This document shows positions 8,347 through 37,586 of a stretch of 64,000 nucleotides of DNA, piece after piece. Origin of the DNA: Callorhinchus milii (taxonomy: Eukaryota). The DNA is taken from contig NW_024704772.1 in assembly GCF_018977255.1 (NCBI RefSeq), forward strand, positions 372,001-436,000. Direction: 5' to 3'. Every line of letters begins with the position of its first letter. Position 1 is the stretch's first letter. Made by a program: the position numbers and the translations under genes. The notes under the pieces were generated by a model. The model was not told where the DNA came from and did not search any database. It was given only the letters and a program-made list of their open reading frames with translations.

Positions 8347-8372
8347 CATTGTGTTTTCAGTACAAAATAAAG

Positions 8373-8739
8373 ATGGAGCTGAGAGTTGGCAACAAATACC
8401 GGTTGGGGAGGAAGATAGGCAGCGGCTCCTTTGGTGACATCTATTTGGGTGAGTTCCACCCCCCAATCACATCAGCTGCGCCTTGTTGTTGGGGGGGTGG
8501 GGGGGGGGGGAAGTATGTCTGTGGGGTGGGGTGTCTTTGTGTGTGTGTGAGGGAGAGTGTGTGTGTGGGGGTGAGGAGACAGAGGGAATGTCTTGGCCCT
8601 ACAGCTGAAGATGCTGTTATTTCCTATATGACAATACATCCAAACCTTTTATCTCTCTCTGTGTCTCTCTCTCTCTCTCCGTCACTCTCTCTCTCTATCT
8701 CTGTCACTATCTCTCTCTATCTCTCTCTCTCTGTCACTA

Positions 8740-8771
<32 letters not shown>

Positions 8772-11443
8772 GCTCTTTCATCTATGTTAAAAACGTGATT
8801 TTTACTAAATAAATCAAGTGCAGAGTTTGATTTTTTTTTCCCTTTTTTTTAATGTACGTGTAATATAACTATTATTTTGCCCACAAAATATACAGTCACT
8901 ACACTTTGCAGCGTATCCTGTGAAGCGCTTTGCGACGTCTGGCAGATGTGATAGGGCGCTACGTCAAATGCCAGGATTATTATTATTTTTTGACATTTAT
9001 CTTTGTGCCCTTCTATTTTTTAAACAATTGTATTTGTTTTTTTCTATATACATATATATATATGTGTGTGTGTGTGTGAAAAGCTATTGTTATATATAAA
9101 ACATACACACATACAGATGTATGTATATTAACTTTAAATCTTTTTTTCTCACACGTCTGTATTTTTAAAACAACCTGATTTGTTTTTAATTGGTCTCTTT
9201 ATTTTGTATATAAAACGTACGTACGTGCGTGTGTATAGACTTTATACCTTTTTCCTCCCACGCTTCCGATTTGAAAACAATTATTTGTTGTTAAGTGGTT
9301 TGTTTTATTTCTCTTATTATACTGTATATAAAATGTACTCAACCTCCTTTTTCCCACGCTCCTGTTTTTTCTGAAGACAATTTAATTTGTCAAGTGGAGT
9401 TTAATTTAGTGTTATGTGTATGACATTCCAACCATTCTCTCCTGTGTTTTATTGGGGGTGGTGGGGGGGGAATTGAAATTGTATATACATATTATACTAT
9501 ATAAATAAAGTATACATATATACATTAATATACATTATTCCCTTTTATTTAGATTTGCTTACGTCTAAATTTGAATATTTTTTGGTTGTTGGAGAGGAAG
9601 GAGTGAGAGAAATTAGGGTTTTTTTTTCTAAATGTTTCTAAAACAAAATGAAAACAGATGTTTAGTATTAATTGGTCTCTCGTCTGTGGTCAGAGATGGT
9701 GTTATCATAATAATAATAATAATAATAATCCTTGCATTTGATATAGCGCCTTATCACATCTTCCAGACGTCTCAAAGCGCTTTACAGTGAAGTGAATTGA
9801 CTGTTATGTTCTGCAGCAAAAAATTTATATTATTTGCAATTTGTGAGTGCGTTGATTTGGGAGGTGGGGGGAAGGCTTGGCTGTCGGGTGAGTGGCTGTG
9901 TGTGTGTTGGGGGGTTGTTGGGAGGAGGAGAGAAGGGGCTTTGTTCTAATTTGCCCTATCAAAAGTTACAGAACCCGACACAGTATCTAACGTGTGTGGT
10001 GTGACGTGGGCCGGGGTACATGCAATAGTCGTCTCAGAGCTTCCTAACCTCCCAGTAGATCTGCTCCAATTCCCGATCAGAGCTTTGGAGAGCAAGAGAG
10101 AGAGAGAGAGAGAGAGACGGGGCGGGGGAATGAACCCCGGAACTCCGGAGGGGAAGAGTGACTGGGTTGCTAGTGCATTAGATGGTTCTCTTCCCTCTCT
10201 CCCACCCCACCCCAGTGTAATGGCCATTTGGTGTGTGAATTTGCCTACTGCATGATATGCAGCTCAATGTTTGATGGTCCTGAGGCGTTGCCTGGGGTCT
10301 GTGGTGGACCTCTGGGCGTGACGTGATGGCTGGGAAGCCACGGTTCTGCTCTGGAGGAGGGCTTAAACCTGACGTAAGAACACCTAAGGTAAAAATAGGT
10401 GTTTTGAGACCCTGTAGAGGTTTGTGAGGCCTCCAGGCAGAGGCAGGGTGGGGGCTGGTGCGGGGGGCACTCCCTCCCTGCTCCCAGCCCAGGAGCCAAC
10501 ACACAGCTATACAGACTGGTTGTAATTTGAGAGCTTGACCAGAGAGAAAGGCCTACCTGCTTGCCATCCATTGGGTCTTGGAGAAGCACTTTGGGATGTC
10601 CTCCTGACGTGAACTGCTGTGAATTTGTACTGTGATGTATTCTAGTGGATTTGCGATGAGGTGATGTTTATACGCCAGTTCTTGCAATAGTTGTGGGTCT
10701 TGAGTTAAGAACACTCGCTACCTTTAATTTTCTAATCGGAAGCGTTGGCTTGGACATGGAACCCACTGCCTGTTTGCCCAGTGGTCACTTCACTCCAACC
10801 TATTGGGGTTGGAGAGGGTTTGAGTTGGTGATGCTTGCATTTTACACAGCCGAATGCGGCAGCCGAATGCGCACGGCAGAAACAGAGATACTGGCTGTCA
10901 TTTAATCGCTCTGGGGCGCCAGCCTGCGTGACGGGCTGTGTATGAGTTGTTGTTTGAGAAGCTCTGCTCTAGCCTGGGAGTGAGTGAGTGAGTGAGTGAG
11001 TGAGTGTGGAGCCTGCGAACCCGTGCATTTTACATAATGCAGCGAAGCAACGTCAGGTGATGAGGAGGGAGCCTTTGGAGAGTAGCAGATGGCTGTGAGT
11101 GTAAGCAGGCCACACGAGGGGATTGAGTGGAGTGAGAGTGTGCGTGCGTGTTGGGGAGGGCGGGGGTTCCAGGGCGCCTGCTCACACCACTCAGCTGCCC
11201 TGGGGGAACCGGTCCTTACTGACCACACGGGTTTGCCGTGGGAGGGAGAGAGGGCGGGCGGGAGGTTGTCTCCTGTCGACCCCCGCTAAGGCTCCCCTAT
11301 GCTGACAGCGCACACTGCTGCGCAGTCAGGCTGTGCATTACGACACAGAGAGAGAGAGGGGAGTGTGTGTGTGTGAGGGATTACGACACCAGCCTGCAGT
11401 AACAGCAGCCGACAGGGAGGAGAGCAATTGTACTTCTGTTTTT

Positions 11444-11481
<38 letters not shown>

Positions 11482-12293
11482 CCGGATGATAGTATGTAAT
11501 ATGTGTGCGCGAGTGTGTGTATGTGTGTGTGAGACGTGCAGTTTATACGTGTTCTCTGGGGTCTGTGTACCTGCCTTTATTCAGACCCACGCCTGCCCCG
11601 AAGACAGTTTGCCCTCGTGCTGCTGGCCTCTGGGATGTGTGTACTCGCCAGTCTGTTACTGCAAACCTTCAGGTGGTCAGAGGACATGTTACTGACCTAC
11701 CAATGAAGTGAGAGGGACGTTAATCACAAATACTGCGTGTCTGTGTGACAGAGCAGTGTCTCGGACAGAGACAGGTTCCCGGGGGGTGTCTGACAGACAC
11801 TGGCTCCAGTGCAGGGTGAGTTGGAGTCTTTGAGGGATTGACTGTGTCTCTGACTCCACAGTTGGCAGCGATGAGCTGACGGCGATGGCTGCAGTAGCTC
11901 TCCTCATCCCCTCAGCCCCTGTGGCTGTCACGGCGTGTGATTGGCAGCTGGGACTGGCTCCTGAATTCAGCAGCTCGTTGTTCTCCTCTACCCCAGAGCC
12001 CTGGGCCCTGATTGGGAAAGCTGCTGAGAGCTGAGCTGTTAGATCAGGGACTCGGACACTGGCCTGCGCGTTAATCCGCTCTCCGCTCTCCTCACCTCAT
12101 CGTGCTTGAGAACGCAAAGCTTTCAATTTGGGGCTGGAGGGCGGAAGGTCGCTCTGAATAGCTGGTATTTGTTGCTGAGTGCCAGTGTTTCTGTGTTGAC
12201 AAGGTGTTTATTTAACACTTGTTGTCCTTGTTTAGTTGGCACAGACTGATACAGCTTTAACATGAGAGCCTGAGCTTCAGTGGCAATGATCCC

Positions 12294-12338
<45 letters not shown>

Positions 12339-15300
12339 GTCTGTGTTCAGGGTGATATGGAAAGGCTCCCTAATAGGATTTAGAAAAAGAGGGTGTTGTC
12401 TTCCCCCCCCCATCCCCATCCCCTCTCCAATTTCCCAAAGTCCTAGCCCTCCTCACCCCAAGATAAAATTGGTGAGAGTAGGGGAATGGGACTAGTTGGT
12501 AGCTCTTCAAAGAGCCAGCACAGGGAAGCTGGGCCGAATGGCCTCCTTCGGTGCTGTAAGATTCTATGTAAATTCACAACGTGGCTGCTGTGATTGCTTT
12601 TAAACAAACACACAGTCACTACACTTCACAGTGAGGCACTCTGATACGTCTCGATGACGTGCTAAGGCGCCGTGTCAAACGCGAGGATTGTCGTGCGAAT
12701 GGGAGTTGTTAAAGCAGTGAATGCTGTCCAGCCAGGAGCGATGTCGCTCTGCCCTCGCTGGGCGCTTCTGTGTTGTTTGTGAAGGCAGCTGAGCAGCTGC
12801 TATCGCCGTGCGTTGGGTGTGTGAGAATGGCAGCGTCGACTCAGCCAAGTTGGCCACAGCAACAACACTGGCCTCTGTTCCCTGACAGCCGCTGGGTTTG
12901 TGCTCTGGTGGTGGCGGGGGGGGGAGTGGGGTCTTCCTGTGTTACACTGGGGAGACGCCGGGACCTCAGCTTAACACCTTCTCCTGAAAGGCAGGATTGT
13001 TTTGCTTGGTAAAAATACTGCTAGAATAATATAAAAAGCTCTGCCCCCCACCCCCTCCAACACCTGTCCTGGAGACTATGTTGTGTGTATGTGTGTGTGT
13101 ATTGAATGTGTTATTTACAATGACGCTAACTCGTGGAGCTCCCACAGCTATTATCACGCCGGGAGTGTTTAGCTGAGCTGGATGACGCGAGCTGACAAGA
13201 CACTATTTTGGGAGCGCTTTAAGCGAGCTGTTTGTGGGGAGTGAATGAAGGAGGAATTAGGCCCAGTTCCCCACAATGGAATACATTATGTTAATCAGAC
13301 CACTGACTAACCAGCTGGAGCTTTGCTTAAATAGTATTAACAGCGTTCTGCCATGCCTGTGTGGGCAAGGAGAAAAACAGTACTCTTACATCCACCCTGT
13401 GTCAAAGCTGGGGAGACAGAGAGGGAGAGAGAGAGAGAGAGAGAGACACAATGTCAGATATACTGTTAAACTGAGCTCCCTCTCTGTGGCCTGTTTAAGG
13501 GGAACGCTAAAGATCACCATGATGTCATTCGTCAAGACAAAGGAGTTTCTTCCGGTTTCCTAACCAACGAAGTGTAGTGGCTGTGTATTTTTGTGGGGAA
13601 CCCAGCAATCAATTTTGCGCACAGTGACGTCCCCGCACAGACAAACGGCCATGAAGTGAACAACTGATTTTATAGGGTGGGGGGTGGCGGAGGTTGTCGG
13701 GCAGGTCAACAGTGGGGATGGGGAGGAATGAGAAAGAGTATGCCCGGTACGGCACAACGAGGCTTGGAGCAGGCGGTGGGCCGCTGAGGGGAGCCCAGAG
13801 GAACTGGTTTCTCCAGGAACATGGAGCTAACGGATGTGTGTTTTCCAGGTGCCAATATCGCTACCGGGGAGGAGGTGGCCATCAAGCTGGAATGTGTGAA
13901 AACTAAACACCCTCAACTCCACATCGAGAGCAAGTTCTACAAGATGATGCAGGGAGGAGGTAAGCTGTCTGTCACACTGTTACCCCTGACCGCAGTGGGC
14001 AGGGGGTGGAGGTGAGCCTGGGTGGGGGGGTGCGGAGTGTATGGGGTGTAGCTTAAAGTGACCACAGGACGGACTCAGAGTGAAGAGTATTGACAACTGA
14101 CATTTGCTTAATAGTAATAAATGAATCGTTGCATTTGATATAGCGCCTTATCAAGTCGCGGAGACGTCTTGAAGAGCTTCACAGAATATACTGTAAAGTG
14201 TAGTGACCGTGTATTTTGTGGGTGAAACGTGGCAGCCAATTATAACAATATAATAATCCTTGCATTCGATACAGTGCCTTATCACGCCTTCGAGACGCCT
14301 CAAAGCGCTTCAAAGGATATACTTTAAAATGTAGTGACTGTATTTTCTGGGCGAAACGTGGCAGCCAATTGCGCACAGCAGCGTCCCCACAAACAGTGAA
14401 AACAAAAACAGAAGTTGCTGGGAACACTCAGCAGGTCAGGCAGCGTCAATAGAGAAAGGAAAGTTTCGGGACCACGACCCTTCGTCAGACAGTGACTGTG
14501 AGATGTTGGGGTGACTCTCTCTCTCTCTCTGCCTGCAGTGGGGATCCCCTCTATTAAGTGGTGCGGGGCTGAAGGAGATTACAATGTGATGGTGATGGAG
14601 TTGCTGGGACCCAGCCTCGAGGATCTCTTCAACTTCTGCTCCCGCAAGTTCAGTCTGAAGACCGTGCTGCTGCTCGCAGACCAGATGGTACCAGAGCTCT
14701 CTTCCTCAACACATTGTGAAGTGCTTCACAGTCTCTACTGTCGCGGCTGAGACTTATTTTTGTAGGCAAATGTGGCAGCTATTTAAACACATCTGCGCAC
14801 ATATACACGTGCACGCACCGTGTGCTCCTCTTCCTTCTCTTTTCCTGCTCAGATCATGTGCTGTTCAGCTCTCTACTGGGTCCCAATGAGTTAGTGTAAA
14901 GCTGATGATGGGCCTGAGAGTTACAGTCCTTTGCTGTAACCTTGTTATCATGATCAGTGACCATATGACAGAGGCGTGTTGAAATCGCTTCACGTTTACT
15001 AACAGAGTTTGTTCAGGGGCTGGTGGAACGTGTTTAGCGTCAGTGTGGCGCAGACTGGCCTGCTGTTTAACACTGGCTGTGGTAACGCTTTGTGACTGCA
15101 GCCGCCACACGTGGGCAGGATTGCCTTGGGGAGAGAGCTTATCTTTTCAGTGTGGCTGAAATTTAAATTAAATCAAATTACTGTTGAGATCCACAGTATT
15201 ACTGTCACTGGCCCTTAAGATGCAAGGTTTTCTGTTTGTTTGTGGTGTGTGTGTGTTGGGGGTAGGAGAGGGGTTAGGTATATACAGTGTGAATATGTGC

Positions 15301-18300
15301 ATGGTGTGTGTGTGTAGATGGTGTATTGTTTGTGGCGTGTGTGTGGGAGGGTATGTGCATATACAGTGTGAGTATGTGTATTGTGTGTGTAGCGATATAT
15401 ATATATGTGTGTGTGTGTACGGTGTGTTGTGTGTATACGTGTGTATGGGCCACACTGACATTGCTGTGTCCTGTTCAGATCAGTCGGATCGAGTACATCC
15501 ATTCGAAGAACTTCATCCACAGGGACGTGAAGCCGGACAACTTCCTGATGGGCCTGGGCAAGAAGGGCAACCTGGTGTATATCATCGACTTCGGCTTAGC
15601 CAAGAAATACCGCGATGCCCGCACTCACCAGCACATCCCGTACCGGGAGAACAAGAACCTGACCGGCACCGCCCGCTATGCCTCCATCAACACCCACCTG
15701 GGCATCGGTCAGCATCCGTCCACCCCTCACTGTGTGATTGTCTCTGCTTCTGGGGGCAGATGCTGAGCAAAGGGGTGGGGGTGGTGGGGGGGCTTCTGGA
15801 GTGTTGAGGCGTGATTTAATAACTGAAAGACAGGAAAAGGTGGGAGGAGGAGAAATGTTTTTACCCGTATTTTACTCGCATCGGGGGGACAAGCCGAGGT
15901 GCTGAACAGTCAGGGTCATTAGGACCCGATTCCGCGAGAGAGGGAGGGAGAGCCAGGGATAGATTTGAGGTTGATACCCCTCTGGGTGTAGAGTTGCTCA
16001 GTTTGTGTGTGTCGTTCCCCTCCACAGAGCAGAGCCGGCGAGATGACCTGGAGTCTCTAGGCTATGTGCTGATGTACTTTAACCTGGGATCGCTGCCCTG
16101 GCAGGGGCTCAAAGCCGCCACCAAACGGCAGAAATACGAGCGCATCAGCGAGAAAAAGATGTCAACCCCCATCGAGGTGCTGTGTAAGGGCTACTCCTGT
16201 AAGTGTTTATCCAGTCGTGTGCGCATGTGGGTGACGATGTGAGAGGCGCTGTGTAAGGGCTACTTCTGTAGGTGTTTATCCACCCCATTGAGGTGCCCCC
16301 CCCCACGTCCTGTTCCTATTAAATAGGTATTGTACATCTTTTTGTGATTTGTGAATGTCCCGCGAGTGTGTGCGCGTGTATATGCACGTGCTTATGTATA
16401 TACACCTGCGCGCCTCTCATTTATCATTTGTGGCCACCAAATGGGTGTATTTTTCTGTGACTCTAATCTATTTGTGCTTTCCTTCCCATCCCCCCCCCCA
16501 GCTGAGTTTTCCACCTACCTGAACTTCTGTCGTTCCCTGCGTTTCGATGACAAACCGGATTACTCCTACCTGCGCCAGCTATTCCGGAATCTGTTCCACC
16601 GGCAAGGCTTCTCCTATGACTATGTGTTTGACTGGAACATGCTGAAGTTTGTAAGTTTTCCCTGTGGCCTCGCCTCCGCTCTCGGCCTCTCCTTTCTCTC
16701 CTGCAGTAAAACTTTAACCCACAGAGGGGTGTTTAACACCACCGCCCCCCCCCCCCCCCACACACCTTTGTGTGTGAGTTGGGGTGGGGGGAGCTGGGAA
16801 AGGAAAGATGCTGGTTTTTGGGAGGGAAATCTGTGCTTGTGTGTGTGAGCGCGCATGTCTGCGGCTATGTTTGAGTGCATGTGTGTGGGGGGAGTGTGTG
16901 TGTGAGCGCGCATGTGTGCAGGGGGGCGGGTGTGTGTGTGTGAGTGCACGTGTGTGCGGGGGTTGTGATTGAGTGCGCATGTGTGCGGCTGTGTGTTTCC
17001 TACTCGCTCTCTTTGTTCTTCAGAGAGAGGTGTATGTGATACGTTGCCCTGACTGTCTCTCTTCCCCACTTCTCTATCTCTCTCTCTCTCTCTCTCAGGG
17101 TGCTGGACGTACAGCCGAGGACTCTGAGCGGGAACGTCGGGAACATGACCGGGAGGAGCGTGTGGTGCAGACCCGCAGCTCGGCCACGCGCACGTTCCCG
17201 CCGGGAACTGGGCCCGGAGCAGGTGGCAACCGTCTACGGAACGGGCAAGAGGCTGTGCTGCCGACTCCCAACTCCCGGGCACAGCAGTCCGGTGTGTGTC
17301 TGTGTGTGTGGTGTCTGTCTTTGTCTGTGTGTGTGTCTGACAGTGTTGGGGCACGATGCCGAGTTGGGGGAGGGTGGCGGTGACTGTAGGCGCGGTTGAA
17401 GAGGAAGGTCTTCAGGTGCAACCTGAAGATAAGGAAGGAAGGGACGAGGTGAAGGGAGGGATAGAGGAAGTGTGTTCCAGGGTCTAAATAATAATAATAA
17501 TCCTTGCATTTGATATAGCGCTTTTCACGTCGGGAGGACGTCCGAAAGCGCTTCACAGAACACACTGTAAAGTGAATTGACCGTATATTTGTGGGCGAAC
17601 GCGGCAGCCAATTGCGCTGGAAGTGCAGCCACCGGTGGTGGAGCAGAGAGATTCATTTCAGCACAACGCGTGTGTGTGTGAGTGTGAGCTGGGGGTTAAT
17701 GAGCCAGTAAAAGAGAATCCTATTAAAAGTAAATTTGTTTATTTTCCTCTTCAGCAAATACCTCGCCCAGACCCATCTCCCGGGCTGAGAGAGAGCGGAA
17801 AGTCAGCATGAGGTTACACCGAGGAGCTCCCGCCAACGTGTCCTCCTCTGATCTCACAGCACGACAGGACGCCTCCCGCATCTCAGCCTCACAGGTCACT
17901 CCCAGCTCACTCCCTAACACACTCCCCTCCCTACACAGCCTGGGTCCCTGTCGGAGAGGGAGTGGGGGGACTACCCTGTCTGTGTGCGTGTGTGTGCAGG
18001 GATGGATATGTGTGTAGGGTCTGTGTGTGTAGGAGGTAGCGTGGCGGTGTGTTTGTGCTGGGGCTGGGATGGCCTGGCACGGCATGGGCTGGGATGGGGA
18101 TGGCACGGGATGGGATGGCCTGGCACTGCATGGCATGGCCTGGGATGGCCTGGGATGGCCTGGCACGGCATGGCCTGGGATGGGATGGCACGGGATGGGA
18201 TGGCCTGGCACTGCATGGCCTGGCACTGCATGGCACGGCCTGGCCTGGCACGGCATGGCCTGGGATGGTCTGGCACGGCATGGGCTGGGATGGCCTGGCA

Positions 18301-19159
18301 TGGCCTGGGATGGTCTGGGATGGCCTGGCACGGCATGGCCTGGGATGGCCTGGCACTGCACGGCATGGCCTGGCCTGGCACTGCACGGCACGGCACGGCC
18401 TGGGATGGCCTGGCACGGCACGGCATGGCCTGGATGGCCTGGCACGGCACGGCACGGCCTGGGCTATATCACTGTGAGAGGTGACTTGGACCTGAGAAAT
18501 AGCTGTGCAGTTGGAGGCCGTGGCTCCTGCAGCTCAGTGGGGCCCTCAAGTGGTGGCAATCTGCCAGTGCAGCTGAGGCGCTGCAAAGTGCCAACAGGAA
18601 GAGTGCTTTGACGTGATGTTCGGCATTTTTTTCCCTCTTTGGTCCCTCCCCACCCACCCCCCACCCCATGTGGTGTCGCGGCCGAATGACCCACCGCCTG
18701 CTCTATGAAACGTTGGCGTTGCACATAAAAAACGCTCGCTCTCAGGGCGCTCACATTGGCTGCTTACAACACAAGATTATGTGTCAGCGAGTGCCACATT
18801 GTCGGAGACTCCGTCCCTCAGATGAGGTGTTAAACCGAGCTCCCCTCCCCGTCTGCCTGTTCGGGCGTCGTTAAAGATCCCGCAAAGCAAAGGGAGTTTC
18901 TCTCTCACGGTGACCTGGCTGCCAGTTTCTCCCTCTCCCGCCCTCCCCCCACCATAGTAAAATAGGTCAGTCACTCCGCAGCTGTTTGTAGAGCCTGTTC
19001 GGCTGAGCACAAATTGGCTGCTACGTTCACCCTCAAAATATTGCCCTTGAGAGGAAGGTTGTGAGGTGCTTTGAGATGTTCTGAATGCTGTGCGGAGCGT
19101 GAGTGAGGCTGTGTGTTATTGTGGCTGATGTCTCTCTCTCTCTCTCTCTCTCTGTGTCA

Positions 19160-19191
<32 letters not shown>

Positions 19192-19230
19192 CTGTAGACC
19201 AGCATGGCCTTCGAACATGTGGCAAAGTGA
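8373..19230 (+). CDS. CSNK1E: Casein kinase I isoform epsilon (416 aa)
   Basis: Exons 8373-8448, 13849-13959, 14539-14687, 15479-15707, 16028-16198, 16502-16650, 17099-17291, 17755-17894, 19198-19230. All introns are GT-AG and the CDS totals 1251 nt. Motifs: [50 protein letters not shown], epsilon-type [11 protein letters not shown] and tail [10 protein letters not shown]. Synteny with TMEM184B/MAFF supports the call. Confidence 0.96.
14115..14400 (-). mobile_element. Two tandem SINE 3' halves
   Basis: Two copies of ttgcatt(t/c)gata(t/c)ag(c/t)gccttatca...gaaacgtggcagccaatt. Confidence 0.75.
17370..17617 (-). mobile_element. LINE2 3' remnant followed by a SINE 3' half
   Basis: Minus-strand [14 protein letters not shown], then (taa)n and the SINE consensus. 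Confidence 0.65.
18062..18465. repeat. Pentamer satellite (TGGCA/TGGCC/TGGGA/CGGCA)n in CSNK1E intron 8
   Basis: About 80 degenerate 5-nt units. These produce the spurious MAWHG/PGHAV ORFs. Confidence 0.9.
18790..19100 (+). mobile_element. Older Deu-type SINE body
   Basis: gtgccacattgtcggag...cagatgaggtgttaaaccgag...ccgtctgcctgttc...gttaaagatccc...cacaaattggctgctacgttc. Similar copies at 25230-25500 (-), 39920-40040 and 42860-43125. Confidence 0.65.
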
Positions 19231-19812
19231 CTGAAGTGCTTAGACCAGCAGGTAGTTTGGTGAGTAAGTACCTATTTGCTGTCTTTGGCGGTGGGACACA
19301 CAGCTGCAGTTTACAACACACATTTACATTTATATGCGCCTTCCACCTCACAAGGATATCCCAAGGCGCTTAATGCTTGCTATATTGTGCCCCGTTGTCC
19401 ACCATCCTGGCAGTCGCTTGACATTAGTATTGCAAATTAGTGTTTCTAATATGTTTTAATTTCTTTAGTTGTTTTAAAAAAAAGTCACAAATTGTTTATC
19501 GTTGACCAGAACTCCAATAATAATAACGATATTCCTGCATACACTGTAAAGTAAATTGACTATACAATTTGTGGCGAAACTCGGCGGCCAATTGCGCACA
19601 GCAGTGTCCCACAAGCATTCGTGGATTGAACGACCAAACTATTTATTATTTCCCCATCTCTTTCTAGTTTAACCACGGGATCTGTAACTCCCACATAAAC
19701 AGGCACAAGTGGGAGTTTGGTTTATTGTGCTTTATTACAAGGGGCTTGTTTTTGACTTGACTTGTATTTCTCTTCCCTCTTCGCCCCCCCCTCCCCCCTC
19801 CCCACAAACCAG

Positions 19813-19869
19813 ATTCCTTCGCTGATGTTTGCCAATGGTGGGGGCGGCTTCTCCAACATTGATCACTGA
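19813..19869 (+). CDS. CSNK1E: Alternative C-terminal coding segment of CK1 epsilon (IPSLMFANGGGGFSNIDH*) at the start of the last exon
   Basis: Pyrimidine tract plus ccAG acceptor at 19811-19812. In phase 0 with exon 8 if 19198-~19260 is skipped. Starts IP-, as the CK1delta1 tail does. Confidence 0.6.
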   Translation: MPSLMFANGGGGFSNIDH

Positions 19870-21349
19870 AGTGGGGCCTTCAGGGAGGATATCAGACCAA
19901 CGCTCGTCTAGAGATTAACTTGTTCAAGAAGTGAGGGACTAAAGGCCTCGATTTCAGTCTGAACACAACTTACAATGGTCCTGTGTCAGTCACCTCAAAA
20001 TCTATTATATATACATTGTTTTTGTTCCCCCTGGTTTATTTGTTTGGGGGAGGCGGGGGGAATCTTTTCCCAGGAGAAACAACACTCCCCCCTTCCTGCT
20101 GCCCCCACCCCCACCCCCCCCCCCGCATAGAATTTTGTTCTCAGACAAACTCTCCACAAAGGGAAGTTCGGACTTCGTGCTTGGAACCTTGTAAAGAGCT
20201 TTCCACCCACGCTCCACTCCATCACCAACTTGTAAATGTCATCTGTGTGTATGTGTGTATGTGTGTGTGTGCGCGCACGCTCGCGTGTGTGTGTTCGCTT
20301 TCGCTCACACGCACGAGAGAGAGGTTTGTTTGTGCGTGTGTTTGCGCTCATACACAAGTGTTTGTGTAAGCGCGTTTGTGTGTGTGTGTGTGTACGCGCG
20401 CGCACGTACATGTGCGTGCGTGCATGCGTGTTCGTGTGCGTGCGCGCTCGTTTCCCAGCAACGCCAGTGATGGGAGGGAGTGGGTTGGGGAAAGGGTGAA
20501 GGAATAGATTGCTAAATAAAAGGGTTTGACCAAGCTCCTTTTGAACCTGCAGCAGTCTCCTTCCCAGCAAGCCCGGAAGCTGGTCCGTTGTAATTTTTTT
20601 ATATATATATATACAGTATATATATGTACACGTGTATGTTACATAGGAACGGGACGCTTGACACTGACTGACTGACTGATCGACTGACTGACGTTAAGCT
20701 GCCTAGACGCTGTGCTGTAAACTAACTCTGCACTCTAGTTAATTGCAGTGTCGTCCTTAACCAGAAACTCCCTTCCTTTGCAGTGCCATGGGCTTCCCCC
20801 CCCCCTTCCACCATTGCCAGATCCCCCCACCCCCACCCCCGCCACATGCCATCCAGTGGTTGGCGAGTATCAACAACACTGCTGTGTAAAGCTCGTCTCT
20901 GTTAGTGTCCATTCGTTCACTCACCTTGTGGGGACGGAGTGAGAACATAGGATGGGGGAGGGGTTGGAATTACATTTTTAAACACCCCCCCCCCCCCCCG
21001 GTGGAAATCTCCCCCGCCCCCAAACACCGAGCTTTGCAGCAGGAAGAAATAGCAATGCAATAAACACAGGCCCACTAGAGTAGCCAGGCCTGAGTGTGTA
21101 AGTGAGTGTGAGCAGGGCCTGGTAAGCTGGCACTCGCTGTTTGTTTGGGGGTGGGGGGGGGGGGGGGTTGTCCTGCTCTGAGCTGCTCGTTGTCTTGTTA
21201 GTGTAAGGTGGGTAGGACCAGTGGTCAGGCCCCAGGCGGCTGCTCATTCCTTTACGGTGTCTATTTATTTTCTTTTTTTTTTAAAACTGGCTTTTGTGTC
21301 GTGTAATTTTTATTTTTTTTAAGGGAGAGCGAGGAGGCTCCCAGACCTG

Positions 21350-30416: not shown

Positions 30417-30686
30417 CCTCTTTCTCTCTTTCTGTTCTGTATTTCGCCCACAAAGTACAGTCACTTCGCTTTACAGTGACTTCCTGTGAAGCGCTTTGAG
30501 AAGTCTCGAAGACGTGATGAGGCGCTTTAACAAATGCAAGGATTATTATTATTATTATCTCACTTACTCTCTGTTCTCTCTCCCTCTCACACACCCCCTC
30601 ACTCTCACTTTCTCTCTCCCACACCCCCACCCTTCGCTCACACTCCCTTTCTCACACTCTTACACATCTCTCTCTCTCTCCCCCAG

Positions 30687-37586
<6,900 letters not shown>

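What the first reader, a model, noticed from the sequence alone, without database searches (positions are those of the whole stretch)
19198..19869. CK1epsilon appears to retain the CK1delta1/delta2-type alternative C-terminal tail switch
Seen: a short exon (19198 to 19251/19259/19263, three candidate donors) encodes [10 protein letters not shown]. Its stop is <50 nt from the last junction, so it should escape NMD. The next exon (19813) opens in frame with exon 8 as IPSLMFANGGGGFSNIDH* (424-aa isoform). Known: CSNK1D makes delta2 (NSIPFEHHGK*) or delta1 (IPGRVASSGLQSVVHR*) by including or skipping the equivalent exon, and the two tails differ in PER2 priming activity and circadian period. Canonical mammalian CK1epsilon has the delta2-like tail. 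Inference: the switch predates the delta/epsilon duplication and survives in this epsilon gene.
Basis: partly seen in the sequence, partly recalled or inferred. Interest (0 to 1): 0.7.

Follow-up and report, generated by a model that had tools for sequence, protein, structure and literature searches.

The report
Relic splice switch in clock kinase
This cartilaginous-fish gene for the clock kinase CK1-epsilon still has the two-exon layout that lets its sister gene CK1-delta swap its regulatory tail, but the four transcript assemblies checked use only the standard tail, so the second tail is likely a leftover from before the two genes duplicated rather than a working switch.

Summary
The sequence observation holds. 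The gene is CSNK1E (tree). Exon 19198-19259 encodes the delta2-type tail, and the last exon opens in phase with exon 8 as an 18-codon frame. That frame is homologous to the delta1 tail of this genome's own CSNK1D paralog, which has the same exon pair. So the layout probably predates the delta/epsilon duplication.

That the switch survives is not shown. Contigs of 4 of 4 laid runs include the exon and show no skip. The same runs give the opposite, skipped form for the delta paralog. None of 178 epsilon-class proteins has such a tail, against 41 of 200 delta-class ones. The frame has Ala-Asn where delta1 has its inhibitory Ser-Ser pair.

Best reading: a relic, with each paralog settling mainly on one ancestral tail (0.55). 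A minor epsilon skip isoform stays possible (0.25): contigs drop rare forms, and the frame is better kept than neutral drift predicts (2-5%). The scan's earlier notes hold nothing on this gene.

The parts
8361..8448 (+). first coding exon of CSNK1E (12 nt of 5' UTR, ATG at 8373)
   Evidence: AG ends at 8360. Exons 8361-17894 sum to 1230 nt, exactly the length of contig X1 upstream of 19198
13849..16650 (+). kinase-domain exons 2-6 (13849-13959, 14539-14687, 15479-15707, 16028-16198, 16502-16650)
   Evidence: AG/GT ends and open frame; Pfam Pkinase on exon 4
17099..17291 (+). exon 7, epsilon-type part of the tail
   Evidence: close to the shark proteins P0001-P0003 and P0195
17755..17894 (+). 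exon 8, shared delta/epsilon tail exon, ends in phase 0
   Evidence: 100% identical to three shark/skate proteins; 85% to the paralog on contig C20
18065..18462 (.). pentamer tandem repeat (about 80 copies) in intron 8; no role shown
   Evidence: TRF
19129..19195 (+). TC/TGTC microsatellite that forms the pyrimidine tract of the exon-9 acceptor
19198..19259 (+). exon 9 (62 nt): delta2-type tail [10 protein letters not shown], stop 19228-19230, donor at 19259; paralog of the 64-nt delta2 exon
   Evidence: included in contigs of 4 of 4 laid runs; paralog exon at G000:C20:7524647
19813..19869 (+). start of the last known exon: 3' UTR in the observed mRNA; a phase-0 frame of 18 codons plus TGA homologous to the delta1 tail
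   Evidence: acceptor used in 4 of 4 runs; homology; translation not shown
19870..20077 (+). 3' UTR covered by the spliced contigs (the true 3' end was not determined)
   Evidence: no similarity to the paralog's UTR, p=0.81
30684..37583 (+). neighbouring gene of family PF03619 (TMEM184B-like, name recalled); synteny marker for epsilon
   Evidence: tblastn with the non-kinase halves of four fused teleost gene models, one of them (P0020) named CK1 epsilon

Best explanation
This is the CK1-epsilon gene; in the four transcript assemblies examined its mRNA includes the stop-bearing exon 19198-19259 and so encodes the 416-residue kinase with the delta2-type tail, and the 18-codon frame at the start of the last exon is likely an untranslated relic of the delta1-type tail that the ancestral gene would have made by skipping that exon. 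Shown: the exon layout, inclusion with donor 19259, the same exon pair in the delta paralog, homology of the two last-exon frames, and the skip form as the one seen for delta in the same runs. Inferred: the common ancestor of delta and epsilon could splice both tails. After the duplication epsilon fixed inclusion, while delta kept the switch and here mainly skips, which is a partition of splice isoforms between paralogs. Also inferred: selection on the epsilon frame lasted for some time after the duplication and then relaxed, which would explain why it is still open but has lost the Ser-Ser pair. NMD escape of the included form is inferred from the 29-nt distance (50-nt rule, established knowledge) and fits its being the assembled form.
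For:: the joint 19259->19813 stands in 4 of 4 runs (2 studies), each in one contig that runs on upstream for 1229, 896, 882 and 39 nt without a break at either junction. In X1 the upstream length equals exons 8361-17894 exactly; the same 4 runs join delta exon 8 straight to delta exon 10 (skip of 7422 nt), so the paralogs show opposite forms; delta has a 64-nt exon 9 (NSISFEHHGM, stop) and an exon 10 opening IPARMTSSGLHSTVPR, stop; the epsilon frame ranks 4 of 3292. DNA homology of the two frames p=0.0024, none in the 200 nt after the stops (p=0.81); delta1-type tails in 41 of 200 delta/cyclostome-class proteins and 0 of 178 epsilon-class ones; all 4 shark/skate epsilon rows end in the exon-9 tail. 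Identity by codon position between the two frames is flat (10/9/8 of 17), unlike exon 9 (9/6/4 of 11) or exon 8 (39/43/17 of 46). S406, S407 and S411 are the delta1 inhibitory sites: this genome's delta keeps all three; the epsilon frame has Ala-Asn at the first two. The last residue is Arg in 18 of 18 distinct delta1-type tails (partly by the selecting pattern) and His here.
Against: The frame is better kept than pure drift since the duplication predicts. With fourfold sites 39 of 112 identical between the paralogs (about 0.75 changes per site per lineage), simulated drift reached the observed similarity in only 2-5% of runs. At shorter distances it did so in 11-20% (0.5) and 35-51% (0.3). 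The length difference is in frame (6 nt) and the stop sits at the homologous place. The RNA data are assembled contigs, which drop rare variants (tool's own warning), from 4 of 14 listed runs whose RNA nature is a guess. The control did not show two spliced forms in one gene: the delta2 exon was not seen spliced in either, and 19 joints were not displayed. So sensitivity for a minor isoform is not established. Protein counts come from annotations and at most 15 listed members per cluster. No cyclostome row with a delta1-type tail was seen (lamprey and two hagfish rows end in delta2-type tails, a third hagfish row in an unrelated tail), which weakens the ancestral-switch step.
Confidence: 0.55

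Rival explanations
1. One reading: the epsilon gene still skips exon 9 in some tissue, stage or time of day and makes a 424-aa kinase with a delta1-like tail, as a minor isoform under weak selection.
For: The frame is open, in phase and ends at the homologous stop, with a 6-nt in-frame length difference. Similarity to delta1 is above neutral expectation (2-5%). The acceptor at 19813 is real and used. Contigs cannot show absence.
Against: No skip in 4 of 4 runs, although a long side path at about 3% of the main depth did survive assembly for delta in X1. 0 of 178 epsilon-class proteins have it. No codon-position signature. Two of three inhibitory serines are missing, so even if made it need not behave like delta1. 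PMC9794997 lists one epsilon isoform each for zebrafish, Xenopus, anole, chicken and human.
Confidence: 0.25
2. The ancestor always included exon 9. The start of the last exon was UTR that only the delta lineage later turned into the delta1 tail; the epsilon copy resembles it by common descent of UTR sequence and is open by chance.
For: The cyclostome proteins seen end in delta2-type tails (3 of 4 rows). A YAG-preceded frame is 14-20 codons long in 12% of cases. Identity is flat over codon positions. With the first two residues held fixed, the rest of the tail is only marginally similar (p=0.07).
Against: Similarity covers the coding frame and ends at the stop (p=0.0024 against 0.81). Both frames stop at an in-frame TGA in the same place. 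PMC9794997 lists two isoforms for one lamprey gene (their tails were not seen).
Confidence: 0.17
3. The gene is CSNK1D (so the switch is the known one), or the frame is an unrelated chance ORF.
For: The kinase exons of the two paralogs are nearly identical; a short ORF after any AG is common (58% reach 16 codons).
Against: The tree puts the window in a set of 12 rows with the named epsilon proteins (98/96) and the C20 paralog with a shark protein on the delta side (99/98). Synteny with the PF03619 gene. Homology tests.
Confidence: 0.03

Closest known systems
CK1delta1/CK1delta2 splicing of CSNK1D (Fustin 2018, PMC6003373; Narasimamurthy 2018, PMC6003379; bioRxiv 10.1101/2023.04.24.538174)
   Same: A short penultimate exon with a stop (63 nt in mouse, 62 here, 64 in this genome's delta) sits between a phase-0 exon 8 and a last exon that opens in frame with Ile-Pro. 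The exon-9 tail is of the delta2/epsilon type.
   Different: It lies in the epsilon paralog. Only the included form was seen. The last-exon frame is 18 rather than 16 codons and has Ala-Asn in place of S406/S407.
Canonical vertebrate CK1epsilon (CSNK1E, 416 aa)
   Same: Same length and delta2-like end; 96% identical to shark P0195 over 342 columns. This is the product that the contigs support.
   Different: A recognisable delta1-like frame opens the last exon. Three tetrapod epsilon models that read past the exon-9 stop (P0069, P0090, P0092) show a different sequence there, but only one frame is visible and the exon boundary is unknown.
[quoted passage not shown]
   Same: Alternative C-termini of epsilon exist in annotations.
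   Different: These rows replace the tail right after the kinase domain or add unrelated exons after exon 8. None is a skip into a delta1-like frame.
Partition of ancestral splice isoforms between duplicated genes (subfunctionalization; concept recalled, no call)
   Same: Each paralog is seen with one of the two forms in the same four runs.
   Different: The partition is incomplete: delta keeps both exons intact here, and both delta forms occur in bony vertebrates.

Membership tests
CK1epsilon (CSNK1E) | groups with named epsilon proteins, apart from delta | tested here: met
   IQ-TREE on exons 3-8 with tails removed, 26 rows: the window lies in the 12-row set with named epsilon proteins, 98/96; the paralog lies on the delta side
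CK1epsilon (CSNK1E) | a separate delta gene exists in the genome | tested here: met
   2 matches for exon 8 in G000; the second on C20 groups with shark P0309 at 99/98
CK1epsilon (CSNK1E) | synteny with the PF03619 gene | tested here: met
delta1/delta2-type tail switch | stop-bearing penultimate exon of about 63 nt with a delta2-type tail, stop within 50 nt of the next junction | tested here: met
   62 nt, stop 29 nt from the junction, spliced in 4 of 4 runs
delta1/delta2-type tail switch | last exon opens in phase with exon 8 in a frame homologous to the delta1 tail | tested here: met
   rank 4 of 3292; DNA p=0.0024
delta1/delta2-type tail switch | both spliced forms are made (exon skipping occurs) | tested here: inconclusive
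   skip seen in 0 of 4 runs; contigs drop rare forms, and the control showed only one spliced form of delta too
delta1/delta2-type tail switch | the skip tail carries the three inhibitory serines (S406, S407, S411) | tested here: not met
   Ala-Asn at the first two; the third aligns to a Ser only with a two-residue gap
delta1/delta2-type tail switch | the skip tail is conserved as protein in related species | tested here: inconclusive
   0 of 178 epsilon-class proteins, 0 of 4 shark/skate rows; no shark or ray DNA of this exon could be fetched (one search returned only two distant loci)
delta1/delta2-type tail switch | the two tails differ in PER2 FASP priming | not testable with these tools
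   needs a kinase assay

The most novel reading that the evidence does not exclude
Cartilaginous fishes keep a working delta1/delta2-type switch in CK1epsilon as well as in CK1delta: a tissue-restricted 424-aa CK1epsilon with a tail that has lost two inhibitory serines. The clock-tuning switch would then be at least as old as the jawed vertebrates and would have been lost from epsilon in bony vertebrates.
Probability: 0.22. Interest if true: 0.55.

Novelty: new member of a known kind. Interest (0 to 1): 0.3.

Why it matters
The last 10-16 residues set how strongly CK1delta/epsilon primes PER2 and so the clock period (PMC6003379, PMC6003373). The likeness of epsilon to delta2 is noted in those papers, and the passages I read give no evolutionary account of it. 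The paralogous exon pair found here offers one: epsilon would be the delta2 half of an ancestral two-tail gene, with the other half left as a trace in its 3' UTR. That is a tidy evolutionary point for clock and kinase specialists, not a new mechanism. It would matter more if raw reads showed the skip, since that would give a natural epsilon variant for testing tail autoinhibition.

Tried and rejected
1. Gene is CSNK1D: rejected.
2. Donors 19251 and 19263: not used in any of the 4 laid runs.
3. A first apparent delta1 frame in the paralog (starting at C20:7526975) has no acceptor in front of it and is chance; the true exon 10 is at 7522016.
4. The look-up of sequencing runs listed no holder on record as RNA; 10 runs are RNA by guess only. 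I laid 4 of 14 (X1-X4). The stretch laid for epsilon (18900-20230) left out exon 8, so the skip was tested through contig continuity and loose ends, not as a direct joint. Three loose ends were not displayed.
5. The delta control gave the skip form in 4 of 4 runs but no spliced delta2 exon among the 15 joints shown of 34, so it does not calibrate sensitivity to minor forms. Parts without cover are no evidence.
6. The metagenome scan gave only two distant loci (L007, L008) whose frames run on past exon 8 into unrelated tails; no use for the question.
7. A protein search with the 18-residue tail alone was not possible (below the minimum length), so the tail was never searched on its own.
8. Seven literature searches listed no title or abstract start on an epsilon exon-9 skip or on the age of the switch relative to the duplication. 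Subscription journals are missing from the library. Fig. S7 of PMC9794997 (vertebrate tails) was not among the readable files (three files are pictures), and the species in Fig. S1d of PMC6003373 were not in the passages seen; both may bear on novelty.
9. Earlier scan notes: nothing on this gene.
10. Splice-site strength was not scored. Stop-codon readthrough was considered and dropped: the frame after the stop closes again at the exon 9-10 junction.

Full report
Question. It proposed that CK1epsilon keeps the delta1/delta2 tail switch known from CSNK1D.

The gene. Eight coding exons with AG/GT ends sum to 1218 nt and end in phase 0 at 17894. Exon 8 is 100% identical to three shark and skate proteins, so the animal is a cartilaginous fish. 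That it is probably the elephant shark is my recall from the genome size (992 Mb) and comes from no call. A search of the own genome finds two copies of exon 8: the window and a paralog on contig C20. A tree of 26 rows, built on exons 3-8 with the alternative tails removed, puts the window in a 12-row set with the proteins named epsilon (98/96). The paralog joins a shark protein on the delta side (99/98) (the root is for drawing only, and the sturgeon and amphioxus rows are long branches). The next gene in the window belongs to PF03619, as in fused teleost gene models, one of which is named CK1 epsilon. The gene is CSNK1E.

The observation. Exon 19198- encodes [10 protein letters not shown] with TGA at 19228-19230. 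The frame at 19813 reads IPSLMFANGGGGFSNIDH and stops at 19869. The computed products are 416 and 424 residues. The stop lies 29 nt before donor 19259.

Is the second frame real homology? The paralog has the same layout: a 64-nt exon at C20:7524647 (NSISFEHHGM, stop) and a last exon at 7522016 (IPARMTSSGLHSTVPR, stop). Against six delta1 tails, the epsilon frame ranks 4th of 3292 YAG-preceded frames from both strands of the window. Shuffling it gives p=0.002, but only p=0.07 with the first two residues held. At the DNA level the two frames share 27 of 51 bases after a 6-nt gap (p=0.0024), while the 200 nt after the stops share nothing (p=0.81). So the two last exons are paralogous and open in the same frame. 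The simplest account is that the exon pair and the delta1-type frame existed before the duplication, which PMC9794997 places in the ancestor of jawed vertebrates (passages). This step is inferred. The cyclostome rows I saw end in delta2-type tails (3 of 4; the fourth has an unrelated tail), so a delta-only origin of the skip is not excluded.

Is it used? Fourteen runs hold the stretch; none is on record as RNA and ten are guessed to be. I laid four (two studies). In 4 of 4 a single contig covers 19198-19259, joins through GT..AG to 19813, and runs on upstream without a break for 1229, 896, 882 and 39 nt. In X1 that length equals exons 8361-17894 to the base, so this contig is by its length the whole spliced coding sequence with exon 9 in. 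No contig starts at 19813 among the pieces shown and no loose end is listed there (three loose ends and many short pieces were not displayed). Exon 8 itself was not in the laid stretch. As a control I laid the same runs on the delta paralog: 4 of 4 join exon 8 directly to exon 10, and the delta2 exon was not among the 15 joints shown of 34. The two paralogs thus show opposite forms in the same libraries. The control also cuts against over-reading. It shows no gene with two spliced forms, so it does not prove that a minor form would be seen, and the tool warns that contigs drop rare variants. One pointer the other way: a long intron-retaining path at about 3% of the main depth did survive in X1.

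Proteins. Of 425 proteins fetched, 45 lack the exon-8 anchor and were dropped and 2 were unclassed. The rest were sorted by a residue rule, not by tree. Delta1-type tails occur in 41 of 200 delta/cyclostome-class rows and 0 of 178 epsilon-class rows. A looser rule (14-18 residues starting Ile-Pro or Ile-Leu) also finds 0 of 178, and the best score of any non-canonical epsilon tail against the window's frame is 2. All 4 shark/skate epsilon rows end in the exon-9 tail. These rows are redundant, include gene-model errors, and show at most 15 members per cluster. Table S2 of PMC9794997 (read whole) lists one epsilon isoform each for zebrafish, Xenopus, anole, chicken and human, two for mouse, three for wombat, and no cartilaginous fish.

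Selection on the frame. Fourfold sites of the two paralogs are 39 of 112 identical, about 0.75 changes per site per lineage. Simulated neutral drift over that distance, starting from today's delta sequence, reached the observed similarity in 2-5% of 4000 runs per setting; at 0.5 in 11-20% and at 0.3 in 35-51% (my own substitution and indel settings, a rough null). So the frame was probably constrained for part of its history, or still is. Against present coding function, identity is flat over codon positions (10/9/8 of 17), unlike exon 9 (9/6/4 of 11) and exon 8 (39/43/17 of 46). The delta1 inhibitory sites S406, S407 and S411 (passages of bioRxiv 10.1101/2023.04.24.538174; supplement passages of PMC6003373) are all kept in this genome's delta but read Ala-Asn at the first two in epsilon.

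Mechanism. Most likely (0.55) the epsilon mRNA includes exon 9, stops there, escapes NMD by the 50-nt rule (established knowledge) and makes the ordinary 416-residue kinase. The delta1-like frame is then a 3' UTR relic of an ancestral two-tail gene whose forms were partly split between the paralogs. Rivals: a minor living skip isoform (0.25); a delta-only origin of the delta1 tail from ancestral UTR (0.17); misassigned gene or chance ORF (0.03).

Known and new. The delta switch and the likeness of epsilon to delta2 are published (passages of PMC6003373, PMC6003379 and PMC9205208; passages of PMC7733671, add nothing on epsilon). Seven searches (listings only for the papers not named here) showed no paper on a delta1-like frame in CSNK1E or on the age of the switch. 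Picture-only supplements of PMC9794997 and PMC6003373 could not be read and may bear on this. Earlier scan notes hold nothing on this gene.

Verdict. Observation confirmed; interpretation partly supported. It works like the delta switch only in layout, and membership as a working switch is unproven, with one defining feature not met. Interest 0.3.

Noticed in passing
G000:C20:7527459 (minus strand; L003 about 7760): Intron 8 of the CSNK1D paralog holds an AG-preceded phase-0 frame MFLDEFRWRL plus stop that matches 9 of 10 residues of the tail of shark CK1delta isoform X2 (P0309, MFLDELRWRL). This looks like a third delta tail conserved in cartilaginous fishes. It was not among the joints shown.
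   Followed up: partly
L003:2292-9769 (CSNK1D introns 8-9): The whole 7.4-kb stretch between delta exons 8 and 10 is covered by contigs at depth 59-66 against 213 for the spliced joint in X3, and about 8 against 299 in X1. Epsilon intron 9 is nearly uncovered in the same runs. This suggests intron retention in delta transcripts.
   Followed up: no
G000:C20:7524647 (delta exon 9): The delta2 exon of this genome ends in Met where the delta2-type tails of most other rows end in Lys, and it was not seen spliced in, in 4 runs.
   Followed up: partly
window 19231-19259: The untranslated half of exon 9 reads Leu-Asp-Gln or Pro-Asp-Gln in tetrapod epsilon models that run past the stop in different frames (P0069, P0090, P0092, P0162), and Leu-Asp-Gln here. 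This points to a conserved nucleotide motif in the UTR part of the exon.
   Followed up: no
window 18065-18462: A degenerate pentamer tandem repeat of about 80 copies lies in intron 8.
   Followed up: no
window 17510-17650 and 19330-19640: Copies of an abundant interspersed repeat lie on both sides of exons 8-9; the second draws very high contig depth. Family not identified.
   Followed up: no
window 30684-37583: A multi-exon gene of family PF03619 lies downstream on the + strand.
   Followed up: partly
PMC9794997, section 4: The passage says that delta1 and epsilon share the last 16 residues and prime FASP better. The primary papers (PMC6003379, bioRxiv 10.1101/2023.04.24.538174) say this of delta2.
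   Followed up: yes
L007:1-321 and L008:2-220: Two distant metagenome loci keep the exon-8 motif and run on in frame into unrelated tails with neither a delta1- nor a delta2-type end.
   Followed up: no
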